DNA of 40,470 bases. It comes from Escherichia phage GA2A. The notes under the pieces are model-generated. The model did no database searches. It was given only the letters and a program-made list of their open reading frames with translations, and was not told the DNA's origin. A program made the position numbers and the translations under genes. The DNA lies in the sequence record NC_031943.1; one strand, 5' to 3'. Shown in pieces: positions 1-40,470 of this stretch (position 1 is the first letter of the stretch; each line of letters opens with the position of its first letter).

Positions 1-165
1 ATCTCACAGTTCAAGAACCTCAAGTCTCCCCATAGGCCCTCTTTCAGTCCAGACCAAAGGCCCTACCCCAGTCTATCATAAGGTTAGACCGATGGTCAAG
101 ACTTCAGGTCAACGATAGGTTGTGGCTATTGGTGGTGGTGGAGACGATAGGTTGGGACTATTGGT
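1..165. repeat. Left direct terminal repeat
   Basis: 1-165 is identical to 40274-40438 at the other end of the window; T7-like genomes carry a terminal redundancy of about this size. Confidence 0.85.
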
Positions 166-200
166 CTGCCTCTGAGTCTCTATCTGTATAACCATAGGTC

Positions 201-13135: not shown

Positions 13136-13186
13136 TAGACTCAAGGTCATTCACATCGAGTGACCTTTATGATTAGACTAAACGGA
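13136..13186 (+). promoter_or_regulatory. Conserved hairpin element, probable RNase III site (R3.8-like position)
   Basis: TAGACTCAAGGTCAT...GTGACCTTTATGATTA; second copy of the element. Confidence 0.55.
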
Positions 13187-13195
13187 GGATTAATA

Positions 13196-14068
13196 ATGAA
13201 GGTTCTAAGTCTGTTTGATGGAGTTGGTGGTGGATATCAAGCACTACGGCTTGCCGGGGTCCAAGTCTCTTCATACATCTCTTCAGAGATAGAAAAGAGC
13301 AGTATAAACATAGCAGCCCGTCATATACCTGACTACTTAAACCTAGGTGATGTTAGAGGGGTAAGAGGTGGTGACTACGACTTAATACTTGCCGGGTCTC
13401 CATGTCAAGGCTTTTCGTATGCAGGGAGGGGGCTTAACTTCAGTGATCCGCGCTCCTCACTCTTCTTCGAATTTGTCAGAATAGTCAGAGAATCATTAAT
13501 CTTTAACCCTGATGTTAAAATCTTCTTAGAGAACGTAAATATGCGTAGGGAGTGGAAGGATGTCATAACGTCAGAGCTGGGAATCAATCCAGTAGAAATA
13601 TGCGCATCCACATTATCACCTTTCCGTAGAAACCGATTATACTGGTTCAACTGGGAGTCAGCACCTGAAATAAAGACTGTCAGTTTCAAGGAGCTAACTG
13701 GTGGTTTACCATGTAGTATAGTTGGTAGACCACTTGACGAGAACCTTAAGAGGGTAGACGGAAAAGGCCTTCCGGTGGTTCAATGCATAGAGGTTACAAA
13801 TGGGGATATTGGAAGATGTGTAACTACGGTATCAAAAGACTCATGTGTATACCTAGGGGCTAATAGACCTCCGTCTAGAATACCTGATGCATATGGGGCT
13901 AATCGTAACTTATGGAGAGACCTTACTATATCCGAGCTGGAGGTGGGGCATGGGTATGACAGTGGGTTTTTTGATAATGTCAAGGAATCTACCGCCAGAA
14001 AGGCCATAGGAAACGGATGGAGCTTACAGGTTGTTTCTAGCATATTTAGAGGGCTAAACCATGTTTGA
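13196..14068 (+). CDS. DNA (cytosine-5)-methyltransferase, orphan
   Basis: Ordered C5-MTase motifs: I LFDGVGGG, IV GSPCQGFS, VI FLENV, VIII FRRNRLYWF, X IGNGWS; start at ATG 13196 with RBS GGAGG; visibly AT-richer than flanks; not present in T7. Confidence 0.85.
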   Translation: MKVLSLFDGVGGGYQALRLAGVQVSSYISSEIEKSSINIAARHIPDYLNLGDVRGVRGGDYDLILAGSPCQGFSYAGRGLNFSDPRSSLFFEFVRIVRESLIFNPDVKIFLENVNMRREWKDVITSELGINPVEICASTLSPFRRNRLYWFNWESAPEIKTVSFKELTGGLPCSIVGRPLDENLKRVDGKGLPVVQCIEVTNGDIGRCVTTVSKDSCVYLGANRPPSRIPDAYGANRNLWRDLTISELEVGHGYDSGFFDNVKESTARKAIGNGWSLQVVSSIFRGLNHV

Positions 14069-19098: not shown

Positions 19099-19339
19099 AT
19101 CAATCAGTAAGGCTTTCAAGAAAGTGGTGAAAAGTACGTTAGGGACCGTAGGTCTTGGCTCTGACGATGCACCTAATGTTGTTGAGGCTCAGACCCCAGC
19201 AGCACCAGTGGAAGTTCCGAACGACCAAGTTGAAGATGTGGATACTGAAACAACCGCATCTGACGAGAAGAAAGTGAAGCGGTCCGGTAAGCGTAGCCTT
19301 CAGGTCTCTCGCACCTCTGGTGGAGGCATCTCTATATGA
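19091..19339 (+). CDS. 7.3: gp7.3-like tail-associated protein
   Basis: N-terminus MGK...K..KKV and C-terminus KRSLQVSRTSGGGISI resemble T7 gp7.3 (ending SGGGINI); GTG start after AAGGAG. Confidence 0.75.
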   Translation: MGKSISKAFKKVVKSTLGTVGLGSDDAPNVVEAQTPAAPVEVPNDQVEDVDTETTASDEKKVKRSGKRSLQVSRTSGGGISI

Positions 19340-19746
19340 CAGACTGCATACTACATAAAGGCTGCGTTAATAATTCTGGGTATGGCCTGAAGTGGTATGC
19401 TGGTAAGCTGCGGGGAGCACACGTAGTGTCGTATCTCAATAACAAGGGACCTATACCAGAAGGGCTAGTTGTGATGCACTCTTGTGACAACAGATTGTGC
19501 GTAAATCCAGAACACCTTAGTATTGGGACCTACAGTGAGAACATGATAGACTGTGTTTCCAAGGGACGGAAGAACTCTCCGCATAGTGACAGCCACTACA
19601 ACTCCAAGCTGAGCGCTGAAGAAGTTAAGTCCATACGCAAGTCAGGACTAACGGCTACAGAGCTTACAGCCATGTATCCCGGAGTGTCTAGGAGAACGCT
19701 GTCTGACGTATTAACAGGTAAAACATGGAGGCACGTAGATGGCTGA
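19336..19746 (+). CDS. HNH endonuclease (homing-endonuclease-like), gene 7.7 position
   Basis: HSCDNRLCVNPEHL HNH core with upstream SGYG...GAHV; paralog of 30395-30844. Confidence 0.85.
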   Translation: MTDCILHKGCVNNSGYGLKWYAGKLRGAHVVSYLNNKGPIPEGLVVMHSCDNRLCVNPEHLSIGTYSENMIDCVSKGRKNSPHSDSHYNSKLSAEEVKSIRKSGLTATELTAMYPGVSRRTLSDVLTGKTWRHVDG

Positions 19747-26978: not shown

Positions 26979-27005
26979 CTAATTGAATGGCCTATAGTTT
27001 CAACT

Positions 27006-27028
27006 TAACTATCACTATAGGGACTATA
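27006..27028 (+). promoter_or_regulatory. Phage promoter (phi13 position)
   Basis: TTAACTATCACTATAGGGA, flanked by inverted repeat GGCCTATAGT / ACTATAGGCC. Confidence 0.8.
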
Positions 27029-28106: not shown

Positions 28107-30389
28107 ATGGCTAGTAATATTGAATCAGCTCTGGCTAATCGTACTATGGGTCGTGGCAGAGCGCCGGGTAAAACTATCGCTGTCAACTATCAAGCAGCCA
28201 ACGTACAGGCTCCTACTGGTGACTCTGGTCTGGCCCGTGCGTTAACCAACTTCGTTGAGTCTGGGACTGGATTGTACAAGCAGTTCAAAGACGAGGAGAA
28301 GACCAGAGCCGACGAGCGGTCTAACGAGATTATCCGTAAACTGACACCTCAGCAAAGACGTGAGGCTATCCAGAACGGCACACTGCTGTATCAGGACGAC
28401 CCTTACGCTATGGAAGCACTTCGGGTCAAGACTGGCCGTAACGCTGCCTTTGCGGTGGATGACGAGATTAACGTTAAGATTCAGAACGGTGAGTTCCGTA
28501 CACGTCAGGACATGGAAGAGTATCGCCACCAGCGACTTCAGGACGCCGCTAAGTCCTATGCTGAAGAGGCGGGTATTAACCCTACCGACGAGTTCTTCCA
28601 GCGCGGGTTCAACGATAACATCACAGACCGCAACATCGCTATCTATGGGTCTTTCAATAAGTATTTCAGCAAGCAGTCTGAAGAGACAGCGATGTTGAAC
28701 ACTCGTATTGAGATGAACTCGTTCCTTAACGATGGGGACCTGATGCGTTCGCCTGAGTCTGGAAAGACCTTCATGGCCTACCTTCGTGATGGACTAACGA
28801 CTGCTGCTATCCCTTCGGACCAGCGAGCACGAGAGGTCATTACCCAGACGGTCCGTGATGCAATCCAGAAGTCTGGTGGCTCAAACTTCCTACAGCAAGT
28901 ACGAGGCGAGCGAATCACCCTTAACGGTGTGGACGCTACAGTCGAAGAGATTGTGGGACCTGACGTCTTCAACGCTGCTATTGTTGAGGCACAAGGCACT
29001 GAGTACAAGCTGGTGGCTAAGTATCAGGAGGACTTAGCGTTAGGCGTTCAGTCTGCGATTCTTCAGGACGACCCAACCATCGGTCTTGCCCAGATTCAGA
29101 AACTCAAGGAGCAGAACAACCTGCTTCAGCCGGGGGAAGAACTCACGCCTCAGCGTCAGATGCTTATTAATGCCGAAGCCAGCTTACTGGAAGCGGTCAA
29201 GCGTAAGTCTGCTGAACAGGCGAAGGAGAACACTAAGTTAATCCAGACCCAGAACAAGCAGCTAGTCATAGACCAAGCGTATCAGCGGCGTCTGGCTGGG
29301 GAAAACGTGTCCACCAACTATGAGGACCTTCCGGTATCAGATGCTACAGGCGAGTTCAAACGTTCGGATATGAACAACTATGCGTCTGCCAAGCTACAGC
29401 AGATTGACCAGATGGACATCCCGGAGGCTGCTAAAGACGCTCAGAAGGTGGCATTGTTAAGAGCTGACACTAACAACGGTCCGTTCCGTAATGCCTTCCA
29501 GACGCTGACTCAGGACGCTGCTGGTGAGTGGCAAGCTGCGGTCATCCGTGGACAGTACGACCCAGACAAGATGCAACGCTTCGAATCTCTTCGTCGTGCC
29601 TATACTCAGGACCCTTCAAGTTTTGCTGCTCTGTATCCTGACCAAGCTCAGTTGTTCTCTACGTTCGACCAGATGGACAAGATGGGCCTTGACCCTCAGA
29701 CGATGATTGAAGCTGATAAGCAAGCTGCAAGTCAGAGCAGGGAGATGCGCATGGAGTCAGACAAGGCGTGGCAGGAGTTGAAGAACGACTCCAAGAACAC
29801 CCAGTTGTCCCGCCTCCCAACGTCTCTGGACTCAAGTGCTCGTAAGGTCTGGGACTCATGGTACTATCGAACAGGTAACGCTGACGCTGCAACTCAGCAG
29901 ACTCAACGCTGGCTGAATGAGAACACCGTAACGTTCCAGTCTGAAGGTTCTGACGGTAAGTCCATCGGCATGGTGTCCAAACACCAGCTTATGGTCGGGG
30001 ATAACCCAGAGTCGTGGCAGGTGGGTCGAGACATTATCGACACCGCTCGTCAGCAGCTCATTAAGGCCAACCCTTGGGTAGTGAACTCTCAGTTGTCCGT
30101 TGTTGAACATAACGGCTCTATCTTCCTCCAAGACGCTACGGGGACTATTCGTATTCGCTACGATAAGGAACTTGTAGGTAAACTCTACCGCGAACAACAG
30201 CAGAAGGCACAAGATGCCGCATATGCTCAGGCAGAACGTGACGCCAACAAGCGAGCGCGTATCGTCGGGACTAAAGCTGCTGGTGACAAACGTCGAGCTG
30301 ACCGAGAGGCCAACATCGAGAAGCGAGGTGGGTTGTACAATGACGTCTCACTGGAGGGTATCGCAAACGTACTAATTGGTAGGGAGTAA
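28107..30389 (+). CDS. 15: Internal virion protein C
   Basis: 760 aa; ADERSNEIIRKLTPQQRREAIQNGTLLYQDDPYAMEALRVKTGRNAA nearly identical to T7 gp15; further blocks YDKEL, NPWV. Confidence 0.96.
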   Translation: MASNIESALANRTMGRGRAPGKTIAVNYQAANVQAPTGDSGLARALTNFVESGTGLYKQFKDEEKTRADERSNEIIRKLTPQQRREAIQNGTLLYQDDPYAMEALRVKTGRNAAFAVDDEINVKIQNGEFRTRQDMEEYRHQRLQDAAKSYAEEAGINPTDEFFQRGFNDNITDRNIAIYGSFNKYFSKQSEETAMLNTRIEMNSFLNDGDLMRSPESGKTFMAYLRDGLTTAAIPSDQRAREVITQTVRDAIQKSGGSNFLQQVRGERITLNGVDATVEEIVGPDVFNAAIVEAQGTEYKLVAKYQEDLALGVQSAILQDDPTIGLAQIQKLKEQNNLLQPGEELTPQRQMLINAEASLLEAVKRKSAEQAKENTKLIQTQNKQLVIDQAYQRRLAGENVSTNYEDLPVSDATGEFKRSDMNNYASAKLQQIDQMDIPEAAKDAQKVALLRADTNNGPFRNAFQTLTQDAAGEWQAAVIRGQYDPDKMQRFESLRRAYTQDPSSFAALYPDQAQLFSTFDQMDKMGLDPQTMIEADKQAASQSREMRMESDKAWQELKNDSKNTQLSRLPTSLDSSARKVWDSWYYRTGNADAATQQTQRWLNENTVTFQSEGSDGKSIGMVSKHQLMVGDNPESWQVGRDIIDTARQQLIKANPWVVNSQLSVVEHNGSIFLQDATGTIRIRYDKELVGKLYREQQQKAQDAAYAQAERDANKRARIVGTKAAGDKRRADREANIEKRGGLYNDVSLEGIANVLIGRE

Positions 30390-30394
30390 TAACA

Positions 30395-30844
30395 ATGAAG
30401 AACGGGACAGCCAGTGAGAGACTGGCACGTCTTTCTGCTGTAGAGGAAACTGGCTGTGTCCGCTTCACCGGAGGTCTTAACAGCAGTGGGTATGGAAACT
30501 TATGGGTCGATGGAAAGACAGTAGGAGCGCACCGTGTTGCCTATGAGTTAGCGAATGGTCCGATACCTAAGGGTAGCGTACTGCGACACACTTGCGACAA
30601 CAGGTATTGCGTGAACCCTGAACACTTAGTCTTAGGGACGCATCGTGAAAACATGGAGGATATGACTAAACGTGGTCGTCAGGCAAGAGGCTCACAGATA
30701 AGCACTTGCGTACTGACTGAAGAAGACGTCAGGTTTATCCGCTCAAGTGATAAAAGCGGTGTGGAACTGGCACAGATTTTAGGAATCTCACCAGTAACTA
30801 TCAGTCGAATCAAGAGGAGATTAACATGGCAACACGTGGTATAA
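30395..30844 (+). CDS. HNH endonuclease, second copy, inserted between genes 15 and 16
   Basis: HTCDNRYCVNPEHL core with SGYG...GAHRVAY; paralogous to 19336-19746; 3' end overlaps the start of gene 16 by 19 nt. Confidence 0.85.
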   Translation: MKNGTASERLARLSAVEETGCVRFTGGLNSSGYGNLWVDGKTVGAHRVAYELANGPIPKGSVLRHTCDNRYCVNPEHLVLGTHRENMEDMTKRGRQARGSQISTCVLTEEDVRFIRSSDKSGVELAQILGISPVTISRIKRRLTWQHVV

Positions 30845-33800
30845 GAAATAACAACATCGGGAACATTCGTGTGTCTAAGGACCAATGGGAGGGAGCTACC
30901 GGAGATGATGGAGCATTCGTCACTTTCGATACGCCAGACTCCGGTGTCAGAGCATTAGCAAAGAACCTGATGTCATATGGTAGGCAGGGATACGACTCAA
31001 TCGAGAAGATTATCAACCGCTGGGCACCGCCTAATGAGAACGACACTCAGTCCTACATCAACTCTGTTGTGGCTGCGACTGGCATTCCAGCAACACAAAG
31101 TATCGACCTGACGAACCCTGACGTCCTCGCCTCTCTGTCTGAGGCTATCGGCTACCACGAGACAGGCTCCCGGTACAACCCTGAAGTCTATCAACAGGGA
31201 GTCGCAAGAGCACTCAACGGTATAAGCCCAAAGACTCCACCAGTAAGCGCTAAAGTATTTGACGCACTCACGGAAGGACTCAAGGCTAAACCTAAAGTAG
31301 CTCTTGGTGAGAACCTTCCGACCGCTGCTGGTCTTAACATTGAGGGTCAATCACCTGAGGCTCCCAACGAATCGTTCGGTGAGATGTTCTATAAGGCTAC
31401 TGGAGAGACCATGCAGGAACGAGAGGACCGCTCTACGTGGTTCGGTTTCGGTGAGGCTACAGAAGCTGAAGTGAAGAACTCTATGGTCGGCGTGGCTATA
31501 CGAGCTGGTCAGACTGAGGACTCACTGGATGTCATTGGCGATGTGTTCAACCCGACCAGATGGAACAACCATAAGTGGACTCGTGAGGAGCTGGACCAGA
31601 TTCGTAACGCTGGGGTTCTGCCTCAGTATTACGGAGTCATTACTGGCGGTTCTCCTCAGAATCTGACAGAGCTGATTAACTTGGCTCTTGAGAACCAGAA
31701 GTTGGACCAAGAGAGGGCCAAGGCCGGGACTGGCGCTCAACTGGTGGCTGGTGTGATTGGTGCTGGCGTGGACCCTCTGACCTACGTTCCTATTGCTGGG
31801 CAGGTAGGTAAAGGTGGGAAGCTGATCAACAAGATGTTCACTGTGGCTGCTCAGTCTGGTGCTCTGGCTGGGGCATCCGAGATTGCTCGAACCTCAGTTG
31901 CTGGTGGGGACGCTCATGTGGCTGAGGCAATTATGGGCGGTGCTCTCTTCGGTGGTGGTATGACTGCTATAGCTGATGGACTAGGCAGAGCCTTAGGTCG
32001 CAACACTAACGAGTTCGCTGGTCCAGCTACACGTCTGGAAGCTCGCGAGACCGCTCGTAACGTTGATGGGCAGGACCTGTCTCGTCTACCTATTCAGGAA
32101 GGTGAGCAGACCTTTAGCCACCAAGGCGTTAAGTTTGCTGACGTTCCGAACGAGCCGGGAAGTGTTCGACTGGAAGATGGTTCAATCCTGATTGGTGAGA
32201 ACCCTCTTAACCCTAAGACACGTCAAGTCTTCGACGAGGTGATTGAGCCTGAACGTGCGGCTGCTGGCGTCAACCTTGGAGGACTTACCGAGATTGGCCT
32301 GAAGCTCCTGAGGTCTGAGAACCCTGAGATTCGCGGACTTGCCGCTGACTTGGTGCGCTCGCCTACAGGTATGCAGTCAGGTGCGAGCGGTAAGATTGGG
32401 ACTACAGCGTCAGACGTATTCGAGCGGCTTCGTGCAGTGGACCATCGGTTCTACAATGACATTGACGATGCGGTCACTCAGGCACTGAAGGACCCATACT
32501 TCCAGACCAACTTCAACCGAGACACTGGTGCGTTCCGTCAGGACATCTACCAGCGTGTAGCTCTGGCTATCGAGGACGGAAGTGGGAACCTAAAGGCTGA
32601 ACTGACTCCGGGAGAACTGAAGGTCTATGACCTGCTGAAGAACCAGTTCGACGCTAAGCGTGAGATGATGGAGAACCCTGCGATGTTCGGTCGGGTGGAC
32701 GCTAAGTCTATCTTCCCCGGCAGCCGCTTCAAGGGGACATACGTTCCTCACGTCTACAGCAACCAGATGAAGGAGATGTACATCAAGGAGCTTGGAAGCC
32801 CTGAGGCGCTGCAAGAAGCAATCAAGAAGTCGTGGCTCACGAGCTATGCGTCAAGACCTGAGGTAAAAGCGCGGGTGGATGAGGCTCTGATGGAAGCTGA
32901 CCCTACCCTGACTCCAGAAGGACTTGCGGCTGCGGTAGATAAGTACGCCAACGATAAGGCTTACGGTATCTCTCACACCGACATGTTTGAGCGTTCGTCC
33001 GTAATGGAAGAGAACATCAACGGTCTGGTTGGTCTGGAGAACAACAACTTCCTTGAGGCCCGTAACCTGTTCGATAGCGATATGTCTATCATCCTCCCAA
33101 ACGGTCAGCCGTTCAACGTGAACAGCCTGCGTGAGTGGGACATGGACAAGATTGTCCCGGCGTACAACCGTCGAGTCAACGGCGACATCGCTATCATGGC
33201 TGGCACCGGAAAGACCACGAAGGAGGTTAAGGACACAGTAGAGACCATGATGAACCGTGCTGGTGATGACGGGAAGCTGAAAGGTGAAGTTTCGACTCTG
33301 CGTGATACCCTGAAGATACTGACTGGTCGTGCTCGACGTGATGGTGCTGACGATGCGGCATTAGCTACTGTGATGCGTACCATGACCGACCTCTCCTTCT
33401 TCGCTAAGAATGCCTACATGGGCGTTCAGAACTTAACGGAGATTGGCGGTATGCTGGCACGTGGAAACGTCCGTGCGATGCTGCATGGTATTCCTATCTT
33501 CCGTGACCTCGCCTTCCGTAGTAAGAAGATGGGAGCCTCGGAGATTAAGGAACTTCACAACGTTGTCTTCGGTAAGGAGCTTGACGACTCAATCCGTCCG
33601 TCCAAACAGGATGTCATCGACCGCCTGCGGGCGTACAGTACCTTGAGTAAACCAGCAGCTACGGCTTTGGGTTCTGCCAAGTATTACACTGGTGAACTTG
33701 CGGTCCGCTCTCCGTTTACGAAGGTCCTGAACGGTACGACTAACTACCTGCTGGATGCCGGACGTCAAGGATTCTTGTCTGACATAGTGGAGCACAGCTT

Positions 33801-34713
33801 GACCGGAAGTAAGCGCAAGTTTGACGACCGCTGGTTGAAGACTGCTGGTATTTCGGATGAGCAGTGGAAAGGCATTAAGTCCCTCATCCGTGAGTCAGTG
33901 ACTCGTGGTCCAGACGGGAAGTACACCATCAAGGACAAGAAGGCATTCAGTCAGGACCCAAGGGCTATGGACCTCTGGCGTATGGGTGATACCATCGCTG
34001 ATGAGACCCTGCTCCGTCCACACAAGCTGAGCAACATGGATGCCAAGGCGTATGGACCTCTGGCGAAGACTGTCTTGCAGTTTAAGAACTTCGTCATCAA
34101 GTCCATCAACGGGAGGACCATGCGTACCTTCTACAATGCCACCAAGAACAACAGAGCGATGGACGCCGCACTGTCCACGGTTATGTCTATGGGTCTGGCT
34201 GGAATGTACTACATGGCTCAGTCGCACATCAAGGCTTACGCTATGCAGGAGGGTCGTGACCGAGAGTACCTTAAGCAAGCCCTTAACCCGACAATGATTG
34301 GCTATGCGGCTCTGTCCCGTAGCTCCCACTTGGGTGGTCCTCTTGGTGTCGCCAACATTCTAGGCGGCATCGCTGGGTATGAGGACACTAAGATGCTCCG
34401 TTCGTCTATCCTCCCGCGCTCACCTACAGAGAAGCCTGAACGTGCCGTCACATTTGGTGCGGCTACAAGTGACCCTGTGATGAATGTCGTCGGTAACTTC
34501 TTGGAGCAGGTCCCAGCTTTCGGCTATGCTGCTAACGTTGGTGTTTCGGCATACAACTTGGCTGGCTACCTCAAGGCTGATACTCGTGTCAACGAGCGTG
34601 ACTACATGACCGGGATGTATAACACTTTCCGCGAACTGGTCCCGAACGACCCTATTACGCAGAAGTTGCTTCTTGGAACATTTGAGGAACAAGGCATTCA
34701 CATCAAGGACTAA
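30826..34713 (+). CDS. 16: Internal virion protein D (ejectosome protein) with non-T7 N-terminal domain
   Basis: 1295 aa; from ~residue 190 onward long blocks match T7 gp16 (STWFGFGEATEAE, TGGSPQNL, RLEARETARN, SPTGMQSGASGK, NPAMFG, GTYVPHVY, RPEVKARVDE, ILTGRARR, RAMDLWR, LVPNDP); first ~130 aa lack the T7 transglycosylase signature. Confidence 0.95.
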   Translation: MATRGIRNNNIGNIRVSKDQWEGATGDDGAFVTFDTPDSGVRALAKNLMSYGRQGYDSIEKIINRWAPPNENDTQSYINSVVAATGIPATQSIDLTNPDVLASLSEAIGYHETGSRYNPEVYQQGVARALNGISPKTPPVSAKVFDALTEGLKAKPKVALGENLPTAAGLNIEGQSPEAPNESFGEMFYKATGETMQEREDRSTWFGFGEATEAEVKNSMVGVAIRAGQTEDSLDVIGDVFNPTRWNNHKWTREELDQIRNAGVLPQYYGVITGGSPQNLTELINLALENQKLDQERAKAGTGAQLVAGVIGAGVDPLTYVPIAGQVGKGGKLINKMFTVAAQSGALAGASEIARTSVAGGDAHVAEAIMGGALFGGGMTAIADGLGRALGRNTNEFAGPATRLEARETARNVDGQDLSRLPIQEGEQTFSHQGVKFADVPNEPGSVRLEDGSILIGENPLNPKTRQVFDEVIEPERAAAGVNLGGLTEIGLKLLRSENPEIRGLAADLVRSPTGMQSGASGKIGTTASDVFERLRAVDHRFYNDIDDAVTQALKDPYFQTNFNRDTGAFRQDIYQRVALAIEDGSGNLKAELTPGELKVYDLLKNQFDAKREMMENPAMFGRVDAKSIFPGSRFKGTYVPHVYSNQMKEMYIKELGSPEALQEAIKKSWLTSYASRPEVKARVDEALMEADPTLTPEGLAAAVDKYANDKAYGISHTDMFERSSVMEENINGLVGLENNNFLEARNLFDSDMSIILPNGQPFNVNSLREWDMDKIVPAYNRRVNGDIAIMAGTGKTTKEVKDTVETMMNRAGDDGKLKGEVSTLRDTLKILTGRARRDGADDAALATVMRTMTDLSFFAKNAYMGVQNLTEIGGMLARGNVRAMLHGIPIFRDLAFRSKKMGASEIKELHNVVFGKELDDSIRPSKQDVIDRLRAYSTLSKPAATALGSAKYYTGELAVRSPFTKVLNGTTNYLLDAGRQGFLSDIVEHSLTGSKRKFDDRWLKTAGISDEQWKGIKSLIRESVTRGPDGKYTIKDKKAFSQDPRAMDLWRMGDTIADETLLRPHKLSNMDAKAYGPLAKTVLQFKNFVIKSINGRTMRTFYNATKNNRAMDAALSTVMSMGLAGMYYMAQSHIKAYAMQEGRDREYLKQALNPTMIGYAALSRSSHLGGPLGVANILGGIAGYEDTKMLRSSILPRSPTEKPERAVTFGAATSDPVMNVVGNFLEQVPAFGYAANVGVSAYNLAGYLKADTRVNERDYMTGMYNTFRELVPNDPITQKLLLGTFEEQGIHIKD

Positions 34714-34733
34714 ACTATCACTATAGGAAACGG
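34711..34733 (+). promoter_or_regulatory. Phage promoter (phi17 position)
   Basis: TAAACTATCACTATAGGA; its TAA is the gene 16 stop; followed by hairpin GGGAGGCGCTACCACAGGTCTCCC. Confidence 0.8.
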
Positions 34734-40273: not shown

Positions 40274-40470
40274 ATCTCACAGTTCAAGAACCTCAAGTCT
40301 CCCCATAGGCCCTCTTTCAGTCCAGACCAAAGGCCCTACCCCAGTCTATCATAAGGTTAGACCGATGGTCAAGACTTCAGGTCAACGATAGGTTGTGGCT
40401 ATTGGTGGTGGTGGAGACGATAGGTTGGGACTATTGGTGGTGGTGGAGACGATAGGTTGGGACTATTGGT
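40274..40470. repeat. Right direct terminal repeat plus one extra partial tandem unit
   Basis: 40274-40438 identical to 1-165; 40439-40470 repeats the preceding unit GGTGGTGGAGACGATAGGTTGGGACTATTGGT. Confidence 0.85.

What the first reader, a model, noticed from the sequence alone, without database searches (positions are those of the whole stretch)
30395..30844. Second HNH endonuclease inserted between internal core genes 15 and 16
T7 has no gene between 15 and 16. Here a 149-aa HNH endonuclease sits in that gap, and its last 19 nt overlap the start and RBS of gene 16. It is a clear paralog of the HNH gene at 19336-19746 (shared SGYG..W..GK..GAH.V.Y, CDNR.CVNPEHL, ..NM.D). That pattern suggests a recent intragenomic duplication or homing event of a free-standing homing endonuclease. 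Relatives lacking the insert would be cleavage targets.
Basis: partly seen in the sequence, partly recalled or inferred. Interest (0 to 1): 0.6.

Follow-up and report, generated by a model that had tools for sequence, protein, structure and literature searches.

The report
Mobile HNH nuclease gene in phage
A small selfish nuclease gene sits between two essential virion genes of a T7-like phage. It is absent from about 90% of related phages, and the sequence evidence suggests it recently copied itself into different phage backgrounds together with the first ~340 bases of the next gene. This is a well-known kind of element, already annotated at this spot in relatives.

Summary
Window 30395-30844 (+) is an intact 149-aa HNH_3 endonuclease gene between genes 15 and 16 of a complete Kayfunavirus genome. 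It overlaps gene 16 by 19 nt.

The model's best structural match is I-HmuI, and it has a C-terminal helix-turn-helix. The conserved His/Cys/Asn residues are all present, and dN/dS is 0.03-0.27.

About 10-12% of related genomes carry a 450-bp HNH gene at exactly this junction. The rest have a 4-5-nt spacer there.

The "homing" reading is supported. The HNH gene plus gene 16 nt 1-~340 (window 30383-~31170) is 99-100% identical in at least 9 independent contigs whose flanks differ by 4-8% (3 differences where 65 are expected).

The "recent intragenomic duplication" reading is not supported. The 7.7-position gene is only 45% identical, no closer than homologs in other phages.

Added detail:
- The HNH C-terminus (TWQHV-stop) is written in the +1 frame of recoded gene 16 codons 3, 6 and 7.
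- Two deeply divergent HNH lineages share this site and an identical first 33 nt.
- Truncated alleles exist, and one empty site looks like a precise loss.

The closest analogue is T4 MobE. The element is already annotated at this site (CR44b "7.7C", TM1). Cleavage itself is untested.

The parts
30395..30844 (+). Free-standing HNH (HNH_3, I-HmuI-like) homing endonuclease gene, 149 aa
30381..30386 (+). Shine-Dalgarno (AGGGAG) serving the HNH gene. It lies in the last codons of gene 15. In empty-site phages the same AAGGAG serves gene 16.
   Evidence: Read from the sequence and the junction comparison. Function is inferred.
30390..30394 (+). 5-nt spacer (TAACA) between the gene 15 stop codon and the HNH ATG. 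The insertion point follows it directly.
   Evidence: Empty sites read TAA-CATA-ATGGCG or TAA-TAACA-ATGGCG. Occupied sites carry 431 extra nt before the gene 16 ATG.
30395..30427 (+). First 33 nt of the HNH ORF, identical across two deeply divergent allele groups. Contains the hairpin GCCAGTGAGAGACTGGC (30410-30426).
   Evidence: Codon identity at amino-acid-identical sites is 188/192 here against 497/1331 in the core. The hairpin is listed as a weak terminator-like site, not above the shuffles. RNA fold z-score -1.3. The reason for the conservation is unexplained.
30524..30655 (+). HNH catalytic core (residues 44-87 plus adjacent residues). H65, C67, C72, H77 and N86 are invariant, as is C21 upstream.
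   Evidence: Pfam alignment covers residues 44-87. Invariant columns come from a 60-sequence alignment.
30710..30823 (+). C-terminal helix-turn-helix DNA-binding domain (about residues 106-143)
30814..30819 (+). Gene 16 Shine-Dalgarno (GAGGAG), carried inside the 3' end of the HNH ORF
   Evidence: Read from the sequence. Conserved in all nine alleles. Function is inferred.
30826..30846 (+). Dual-coding stretch. The first 7 codons of gene 16 are recoded so that the +1 frame reads W-Q-H-V-V-stop, which is the HNH C-terminus. The positions linked to the HNH gene are gene 16 nt 9, 18, 19 and 21 (window 30834, 30843, 30844, 30846).
   Evidence: All 9 occupied genomes were compared with 6 + 19 empty genomes. 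Empty sites read ATGGCGACTCGTGGTATTCGC. The window reads ATGGCAACACGTGGTATAAGA.
30383..31170 (+). Linkage block inherited with the HNH gene: the spacer, the HNH gene and gene 16 nt 1-~340. The right edge lies between 31150 and 31177.
   Evidence: The block is 99-100% identical in at least 9 independent contigs whose flanks differ by 4-8%. It has 3 differences where 65 are expected (Poisson P about 1e-24), and the longest identical run is 30383-30902. Outside the block the window matches type-1 empty-site phages.
28107..30389 (+). Gene 15 (internal virion protein C), the upstream flank
   Evidence: Annotated in relatives. Pfam Phage_T7_Gp15 hits the identical-length product in L039.
30826..34713 (+). 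Gene 16 (internal virion protein D, peptidoglycan hydrolase), the downstream flank and the likely location of the target
   Evidence: Annotated in relatives. Placing the target here is an inference from the linkage block.
27003..27025 (+). Nearest upstream phage-RNA-polymerase promoter. The next one is at 34709-34731, so the HNH gene has no promoter of its own and is co-transcribed with the genes that run from here through gene 16.
   Evidence: The window was scanned with the consensus of CR44b's 11 annotated promoters.
19336..19746 (+). Gene 7.7-position HNH gene (136 aa). Same family, 45% identical, and not the recent source of the 15/16 gene.
   Evidence: Its position before portal gene 8 matches T7 and CR44b gene 7.7.

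Best explanation
This is a free-standing, I-HmuI-like HNH homing endonuclease gene (HEG) inserted exactly between the gene 15 stop codon and the gene 16 start codon of a Kayfunavirus.

It has no promoter of its own and is transcribed late with the internal-virion-protein genes. It uses the ribosome-binding site that serves gene 16 in empty-site phages, and it carries a replacement site for gene 16 in its own 3' end. Its last six codons are written in the +1 frame of gene 16's recoded first codons, so the insertion is close to neutral for the phage.

Inferred mechanism:
1. In a mixed infection the monomeric enzyme binds through its helix-turn-helix domain and its N-terminal sheet.
2. It nicks or cuts HEG-less genomes at or near the junction, or within the first ~350 nt of gene 16.
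3. Recombinational repair from the HEG-carrying genome copies in the HEG and the adjacent gene 16 segment. That segment carries the resistant version of the target.

Shown here: the domain make-up and conserved residues, the exact empty site, the sporadic distribution, purifying selection, and a sharply bounded block of about 790 nt that is nearly identical in otherwise diverged genomes.

Inferred, not shown: nuclease activity, where it cuts, and that the block spread by cleavage-driven repair rather than ordinary recombination.
For: Enzyme features:
- Pfam HNH_3 E=2e-16.
- C21, Y33, H65, C67, C72, H77 and N86 are invariant across 60 homologs and present here.
- dN/dS is 0.03-0.27 among nine alleles, all 149 aa.

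Distribution:
- Of about 200 phage records with this gene pair, about 22 are occupied.
- A spread sample shows only two states, empty or +431-436 nt, with 7 of about 57 occupied.
- IMG/VR has 19 empty junctions and 1 occupied.

Spread:
- The exact protein is on 11 contigs.
- The HNH DNA has 0-5 differences in 431 nt, and gene 16 nt 1-350 is 95-99% identical. Gene 15 is 94-96% identical and gene 16 nt 351-1500 is 92-95%.
- The block has 3 differences where 65 are expected, P about 1e-24.
- The window's flanks match empty-site phages to within 0-2 differences per 50 nt right up to the HEG, and again from gene 16 nt ~351.

Life cycle and expression:
- Truncated alleles of 130, 123 and 90 aa exist, as the HEG life cycle predicts.
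- There is no phage promoter between 27003 and 34709.
- No intron or other Rfam family is found.

Precedent: T4 MobE is a promoterless free-standing HNH HEG that nicks the 5' region of the downstream gene, nrdB (PMC2790892).
Against: - No biochemical or genetic test of cleavage exists for this protein or for any T7-family 7.7/2.8-type HNH that I could find.
- T7-like phages are highly mosaic through ordinary recombination, so a shared patch is not proof of nuclease-driven conversion.
- Both edges of the block are the same in all contigs. That fits a single ancestral patch later shuffled into different backgrounds as well as it fits repeated homing.
- The right edge (about aa 115 of gp16) could be a protein-domain boundary rather than a cleavage-related one.
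- The deep phylogeny of the family is unresolved (bootstraps under 60).
Confidence: 0.78

Rival explanations
1. The gene is a passenger. It is a conserved HNH-fold DNA-binding protein, possibly inactive as a site-specific nuclease. Ordinary homologous recombination among co-infecting Kayfunaviruses moved it together with a favoured N-terminal gene 16 allele.
For: Pervasive mosaicism is visible in the flanks. The block's right edge could be a gp16 domain boundary. A gene 16 5' allele related to the window's also occurs in empty sites, the type-2 empties.
Against: The left edge of the block coincides with the HNH start to within 0-5 nt in every contig, with three different spacers. The longest identical run is centred on the HNH gene. 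The catalytic residues are invariant and dN/dS is 0.03-0.27, which a passenger would not need.
Confidence: 0.1
2. The nuclease is kept mainly because it helps the phage. It would act as a weapon in mixed infections (marker exclusion, or interference with competitors' gene 16 or DNA), so that homing is a by-product.
For: Strong purifying selection. HNH endonucleases of Skunavirus show marker exclusion (PMC12724721). An intron endonuclease mediates interference competition in PhiPA3 (PMC11620839, listed).
Against: About 90% of relatives do without it. Truncated alleles and an apparent precise loss exist. This reading is not exclusive of the main explanation and uses the same biochemistry.
Confidence: 0.1
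3. One reading: a recent intragenomic duplication of the phage's own gene 7.7 into the 15/16 gap.
For: The two genes belong to the same family and share domain order and motifs.
Against: Protein identity is 45%, and only 70 nt of DNA are alignable, at 77%. T7 gp7.7, CR44b 7.7 and many metagenomic proteins are as close or closer. Nearly identical copies already sit at the 15/16 site in other phages, so the gene arrived from outside as a 15/16-site allele.
Confidence: 0.02

Closest known systems
Phage T4 MobE (free-standing HNH homing endonuclease between nrdA and nrdB)
   Same: Both are small free-standing HNH genes wedged between two conserved genes. Both lack a promoter and depend on upstream transcription. 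MobE acts on the 5' region of the downstream gene, and flanking DNA is co-converted (PMC2790892). Here there is no promoter between 27003 and 34709, and the co-inherited tract covers the first ~340 nt of the downstream gene 16. MobE also has an internal hairpin terminator. Here an invariant hairpin sits at codons 6-11, with unknown function.
   Different: The phage family and the target gene differ. No significant sequence relationship to MobE was tested. For the window protein, nicking, homing frequency and the cleavage site are all unmeasured.
I-HmuI (Bacillus phage SPO1 intron-encoded HNH nicking endonuclease, PDB 1U3E)
   Different: Sequence identity is only 16-17%. I-HmuI is encoded in an intron, whereas this gene is intergenic with no intron. 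This subfamily also has an invariant Cys/Cys/Cys/His set (C21, C67, C72, H77) and a weak match to the I-PpoI-type zinc-loop model PF05551, at 24.2 bits against a cutoff of 27.
Citrobacter phage CR44b gene 7.7C, and the annotated HNH genes of phages TM1, Pipis and Ro45lw at the same junction
   Same: The insertion site, the length (149 aa) and the 19-nt overlap with gene 16 are identical. TM1, Pipis and Ro45lw carry the same allele group: 89-90% DNA identity and 93-96% protein identity. They are annotated 'HNH homing endonuclease', 'HNH nuclease' and 'endonuclease'.
   Different: CR44b-type alleles are only 53-59% identical in protein, with saturated dS. None has been studied experimentally or described beyond its annotation.
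T7 genes 7.7 and 2.8 (uncharacterised HNH_3 proteins of T7)
   Same: Same protein family. T7 gp7.7 is 48-51% identical over residues 21-148 and gp2.8 is 40% identical.
   Different: They sit at different genomic sites, and T7 has nothing between genes 15 and 16. The 15/16 alleles have an extra N-terminal ~20 aa (MKNGTASERLA...).
T4 SegG and SegF (free-standing GIY-YIG endonucleases that cut at a distance and cause localised marker exclusion)
   Same: The concept is the same: the cleavage site lies in a neighbouring essential gene, and the stretch between the cut and the endonuclease gene is co-converted. This rests on my own knowledge and on the review PMC2988022 listed.
   Different: They belong to a different nuclease family (GIY-YIG). 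The distant-site idea is only an inference here.

Membership tests
HNH_3 / I-HmuI-like HNH endonucleases | Beta-beta-alpha-metal HNH motif with the catalytic His and the metal-binding Asn | tested here: met
   PF13392 E=2.2e-16, covering residues 44-87. H65 and N86 are invariant and N69 nearly invariant in 60 homologs.
HNH_3 / I-HmuI-like HNH endonucleases | Overall fold and domain order like I-HmuI (N-terminal sheet, HNH core, C-terminal HTH) | tested here: met
HNH_3 / I-HmuI-like HNH endonucleases | Site-specific nicking or cleavage of DNA | not testable with these tools
   This needs purified protein or in vivo mapping.
Free-standing homing endonuclease gene (HEG) | Present or absent at one precise site among close relatives, with an intact empty site | tested here: met
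   The junction is either empty (4-5-nt spacer) or carries +431-436 nt. About 10-12% of phage records are occupied, and 1 of 20 in IMG/VR.
Free-standing homing endonuclease gene (HEG) | Distribution disagrees with the phylogeny of the flanks, and adjacent DNA is co-converted | tested here: met
   The HNH gene is 99-100% identical in backgrounds that differ by 4-8%. The block 30383-~31170 has 3 differences where 65 are expected. The window's flanks match empty-site phages.
Free-standing homing endonuclease gene (HEG) | The ORF is maintained (purifying selection), with occasional decay and loss in the population | tested here: met
   dN/dS is 0.03-0.27. Truncated alleles P0045, P0047, P0048 and P0053 exist. 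HC13 has an empty site that keeps the recoded gene 16 codons.
Free-standing homing endonuclease gene (HEG) | The enzyme cuts the HEG-less allele, and the HEG is inherited above Mendelian frequency in crosses | not testable with these tools
   This needs mixed-infection crosses and cleavage assays.
Intron-encoded homing endonuclease | The ORF is embedded in a self-splicing group I or II intron that interrupts a gene | tested here: not met
   No Rfam family reaches the gathering score anywhere in the window. The insert is intergenic, and gene 15 and gene 16 are intact in both empty and occupied genomes.
Recent intragenomic paralog of gene 7.7 | Higher similarity to the same genome's 7.7 than to homologs elsewhere, with alignable DNA | tested here: not met
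   Protein identity is 45%. The window's own 7.7 ranks 23rd of 27 comparators, and only a 70-nt DNA stretch aligns, at 77%.
Terminase-associated HNH (HK97 gp74 type) | Adjacent to the terminase genes, conserved in all relatives, and required for cos cleavage | tested here: not met
   The gene lies between internal virion genes 15 and 16 and is absent from about 90% of relatives. The genome has direct terminal repeats. The functional requirement was not tested.

The most novel reading that the evidence does not exclude
The 15/16 junction may be a reusable 'landing pad'. Two HNH lineages whose cores are as far apart as unrelated family members (53-59% aa, saturated dS, not united in the tree) share an identical 33-nt 5' leader with an invariant hairpin, and a dual-coding 3' end that overprints gene 16. 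If so, whole nuclease cores, and with them target specificities, are swapped between fixed ends. The leader could also be a functional RNA or DNA element, for example an attenuator like MobE's internal terminator. The sharply bounded 790-nt drive block would mark a distant cleavage site in gene 16.
Probability: 0.2. Interest if true: 0.5.

Novelty: already known. Interest (0 to 1): 0.3.

Why it matters
As an element it is ordinary. HNH homing endonuclease genes are common in T7-like phages, and this one is already annotated at the same junction in CR44b, TM1, Pipis and Ro45lw.

Its value is as a clean natural example. The same site has:
- two kinds of empty allele;
- at least two deep HNH lineages;
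- decayed copies;
- a probable precise loss;
- a sharply bounded block of about 790 nt that has spread into diverged backgrounds.

That makes it an easy system for measuring homing and mapping the cleavage site in a T7-type phage, where, as far as my literature searches found, no 7.7/2.8-type HNH has been characterised. It also matters for phage engineering and therapy cocktails, because mixed infections could convert this locus.

Tried and rejected
- Sequence search of the PDB found nothing meaningful (best E 0.55). Fold search was needed instead.
- My first list of 'HEG-specific' fixed differences in gene 16 (nt 45-50 and 70-72) was an artefact of sampling only type-1 empty sites. IMG/VR type-2 empties carry those variants without the HEG. 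Only nt 9, 18, 19 and 21 remain strictly linked.
- The NJ tree, built to test whether all 15/16 alleles form one clade or derive from gene 7.7, has deep nodes with bootstraps of 6-56%, so it is inconclusive.
- The hairpin at codons 6-11, tested as a structured RNA or terminator, has fold z -1.3. The terminator-like count equals the shuffles, and the T-tract is absent from CR44b-type alleles. There is no support for a function.
- An intron context was rejected: there are no Rfam hits.
- A promoter of its own was rejected: no phage promoter lies between 27003 and 34709, and the single sigma-70-like match, on the minus strand, is at the chance level.
- The extra 648 nt in phage Emlis looked like a possible second insert but is a tandem duplication inside gene 15.
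- Literature searches found no study of this junction or of the activity of T7 7.7-type HNH proteins, only annotations.

Full report
**What is there**

The window is a complete T7-like genome of the genus Kayfunavirus. Its best matches in GenBank phages are Kayfunavirus records at about 90% identity over genes 15-16. A ~180-bp sequence at the left end recurs near the right end, which is a direct terminal repeat.

The ORF at 30395-30844 (+) is real: ATG start, 149 aa. It lies between gene 15 (28107-30389) and gene 16 (30826-34713). The gene identities rest on annotated relatives, including CR44b, whose gene products were seen by mass spectrometry.

The layout at the junction is as follows:
- The gene 15 stop codon is followed by a 5-nt spacer (TAACA) and then the HNH ATG.
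- The HNH ORF ends 19 nt inside gene 16.
- The gene 16 ribosome-binding site (GAGGAG, 30814-30819) lies in the HNH ORF, just upstream of the overlap.

**Protein**

- Pfam assigns HNH_3 (E=2.2e-16) and a sub-threshold match to the I-PpoI-type zinc-loop model. PHROGs gives HNH endonuclease families.
- In an alignment of 60 homologs the invariant columns are C21, Y33, H65, C67, C72, H77 and N86. All are present here.
- A sequence search of the PDB found nothing.

So the catalytic set is not degenerate, and the architecture is that of a monomeric HNH nicking or cutting enzyme with a separate DNA-binding domain. Activity itself is inferred.

**The paralog claim**

The gene at 19336-19746 sits just before portal gene 8, which is the gene 7.7 position. 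It is 45% identical to the 15/16 protein.

- T7 gp7.7 is 48-51% identical and CR44b 7.7 is 47% identical.
- Among 27 comparators the window's own 7.7 ranks 23rd.
- At the DNA level only a 70-nt stretch around the catalytic motif aligns, at 77%.

The two genes belong to the same family. A recent intragenomic duplication is not supported.

**Distribution among relatives**

- About 200 phage records carry this gene pair.
- Searches with the window allele and the CR44b allele find about 22 records with a 450-bp HNH gene at the junction.
- A spread sample of the ranking shows only two states, empty or +431-436 nt, with 7 of about 57 spanning records occupied.
- In IMG/VR, 19 Kayfunavirus junctions are empty and one is occupied. 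The occupied one is CR44b itself.
- K1F and EcoDS1 are empty.
- T7 has nothing between genes 15 and 16.

The gene is already annotated at this site in several records: CR44b '7.7C, predicted homing endonuclease', TM1 'HNH homing endonuclease', Pipis 'HNH nuclease' and Ro45lw 'endonuclease'. I found no paper that analyses it.

**The insertion site and the overlap**

Empty sites read ...GGAGTAA-CATA-ATGGCGACTCGTGGTATTCGC... (type 1) or ...GGAGTAA-TAACA-ATGGCGACTCGTGGTATTCGC... (type 2). Occupied sites have 431 nt inserted immediately before the gene 16 ATG.

In empty phages the AAGGAG in the last codons of gene 15 serves gene 16. In occupied phages it serves the HNH gene, and the insert supplies a new GAGGAG for gene 16.

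After comparing 9 occupied and 25 empty junctions, only gene 16 nt 9, 18, 19 and 21 are strictly linked to occupancy.
- These synonymous changes (ACT to ACA, ATT to ATA/GTA, CGC to AGA/AGG) turn the +1 frame from W-R-L-V-V-F... into W-Q-H-V-V-stop.
- That sequence is the conserved TW.HV C-terminus of this HNH family plus its stop codon.
- The unmodified gene 16 start is one substitution away from that motif. This may explain why the element landed, or was retained, exactly here. That point is inference.

**Evidence for recent spread**

The exact protein is encoded on 11 contigs from independent samples. Compared with the window:

| Region | Identity to the window |
|---|---|
| HNH DNA (431 nt) | 0-5 differences |
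| Gene 16 nt 1-350 | 95-99% |
| Gene 15 | 94-96% |
| Gene 16 nt 351-1500 | 92-95% |

- For three 6.4-kb loci, the block 30383-31150 has 3-7 differences where 57-65 are expected from the rest (Poisson P of 6e-17 to 2e-24).
- The longest identical run is 30383-30902 in two of the loci and 30569-30902 in the third, far longer than any run elsewhere.
- The left edge is within 0-5 nt of the HNH ATG. Three different spacers adjoin the same HNH gene.
- The right edge falls at 31150-31177 in all contigs.
- Outside this block the window matches type-1 empty-site phages at 0-2 differences per 50 nt. Inside it, the window differs from them by 6-14 per 50 nt.

This is the pattern expected if the element and a downstream tract were copied into an empty type-1 genome. 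The same pattern is documented for T4 MobE, a promoterless free-standing HNH gene that nicks the 5' region of the downstream nrdB gene (PMC2790892).

Here too the gene has no promoter of its own. The nearest phage promoters are at 27003 and 34709.

I therefore place the likely target at the junction or within gene 16 nt 1-350. A gp16 domain boundary at about aa 115 is an alternative reason for the right edge.

**Allele diversity and life cycle**

- Nine sequenced alleles are all 149 aa, with dN/dS of 0.03-0.27.
- They fall into two deep groups: window/TM1/Pipis/Ro45lw and CR44b/PH1061/ZH4/SD6/Ro103C3lw. Between groups, protein identity is 53-59% and dS is saturated.
- An NJ tree of the core does not join the two groups, but its deep nodes are unsupported.
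- Yet the first 33 nt are identical between the groups. Codon identity at amino-acid-identical sites is 188/192 there, against 497/1331 in the core. The stretch includes an invariant hairpin (30410-30426).
- I could not show a function for that hairpin. A core swap between fixed ends, or selection on the nucleotide sequence, are the options.
- Truncated alleles of 130, 123 and 90 aa occur in metagenomes.
- Phage HC13 has an empty junction that still carries the recoded gene 16 codons. That looks like a precise loss.

Invasion, maintenance, decay and loss are all visible at this one site.

**Verdict**

The homing-endonuclease interpretation is supported as far as sequence data can go, and the recent-duplication idea is rejected.

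The element is of a well-known kind and is already annotated at this site, so novelty is low. The quality of the natural evidence, together with the overprinted C-terminus, the shared 5' leader and the sharply bounded drive block, makes it a good experimental system rather than a discovery.

Noticed in passing
window 13160-14068 (+): A 302-aa ORF immediately upstream of DNA polymerase gene 5 is a C-5 cytosine DNA methyltransferase (Pfam PF00145, E=8e-24). The motifs FDGVGG, PCQGFS and ENV are visible. CR44b has an HNH gene (7.7B) at this position instead, and the window segment 13193-14085 has no DNA match to CR44b.
   Followed up: partly
window 19336-19746: The gene 7.7 locus shows the same cassette pattern as the 15/16 site. 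The flanks match CR44b up to 19349 and again from 19716, but the HNH core between them is only 42% identical in protein to CR44b's 7.7.
   Followed up: partly
window 30395-30427: The first 33 nt of the HNH ORF, including the hairpin GCCAGTGAGAGACTGGC, are identical in allele groups that are otherwise at saturated synonymous divergence. I found no explanation.
   Followed up: partly
L011 (Escherichia phage HC13), junction at about 2284-2310: The 15/16 junction is empty, but gene 16 begins ATGGCAACACGTGGTGTAAGG. That is the recoded form that otherwise occurs only with the HNH gene. It looks like a precise loss of the element, or a pre-adapted or resistant allele.
   Followed up: partly
proteins P0045, P0047, P0048, P0053 (metagenome contigs of about 39-40 kb): These are truncated versions (130, 130, 123 and 90 aa) of the SD6/PH1061-type 15/16 HNH. 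They lose the helix-turn-helix domain through frameshift or a premature stop, so they are decaying copies.
   Followed up: no
L016 (CR44b whole genome) compared with the window: CR44b carries five HNH genes (7.7B, 7.7, 7.7C, 3.8A, 3.8B). The window has only two of the 7.7 type and no counterparts of 3.8A or 3.8B beside the terminase gene. HNH content varies widely within the genus.
   Followed up: partly
L015 (Kayfunavirus Emlis) 1521-2822: An extra 648 nt relative to other phages is a tandem duplication of gene 15 nt 1521-2174. It could be real or an assembly artefact, but it is not a mobile element.
   Followed up: yes
L012 (Bas105), L009 (PH1061), L006 (ZH4): gene 16: Gene 16 is annotated as 4389 nt in these phages, against 3888 nt in the window and most relatives (+501 nt). 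I did not examine the nature of the extra segment.
   Followed up: no
window 30382: The window alone has AGG instead of AAG in the penultimate codon of gene 15 (K to R). This also changes the Shine-Dalgarno used by the HNH gene from AAGGAG to AGGGAG. All compared contigs and phages have AAGGAG.
   Followed up: no
window 1-182 and 40275-40438: A direct terminal repeat of about 180 bp matches CR44b's annotated terminal repeat. This indicates that the window is a complete linear genome.
   Followed up: partly
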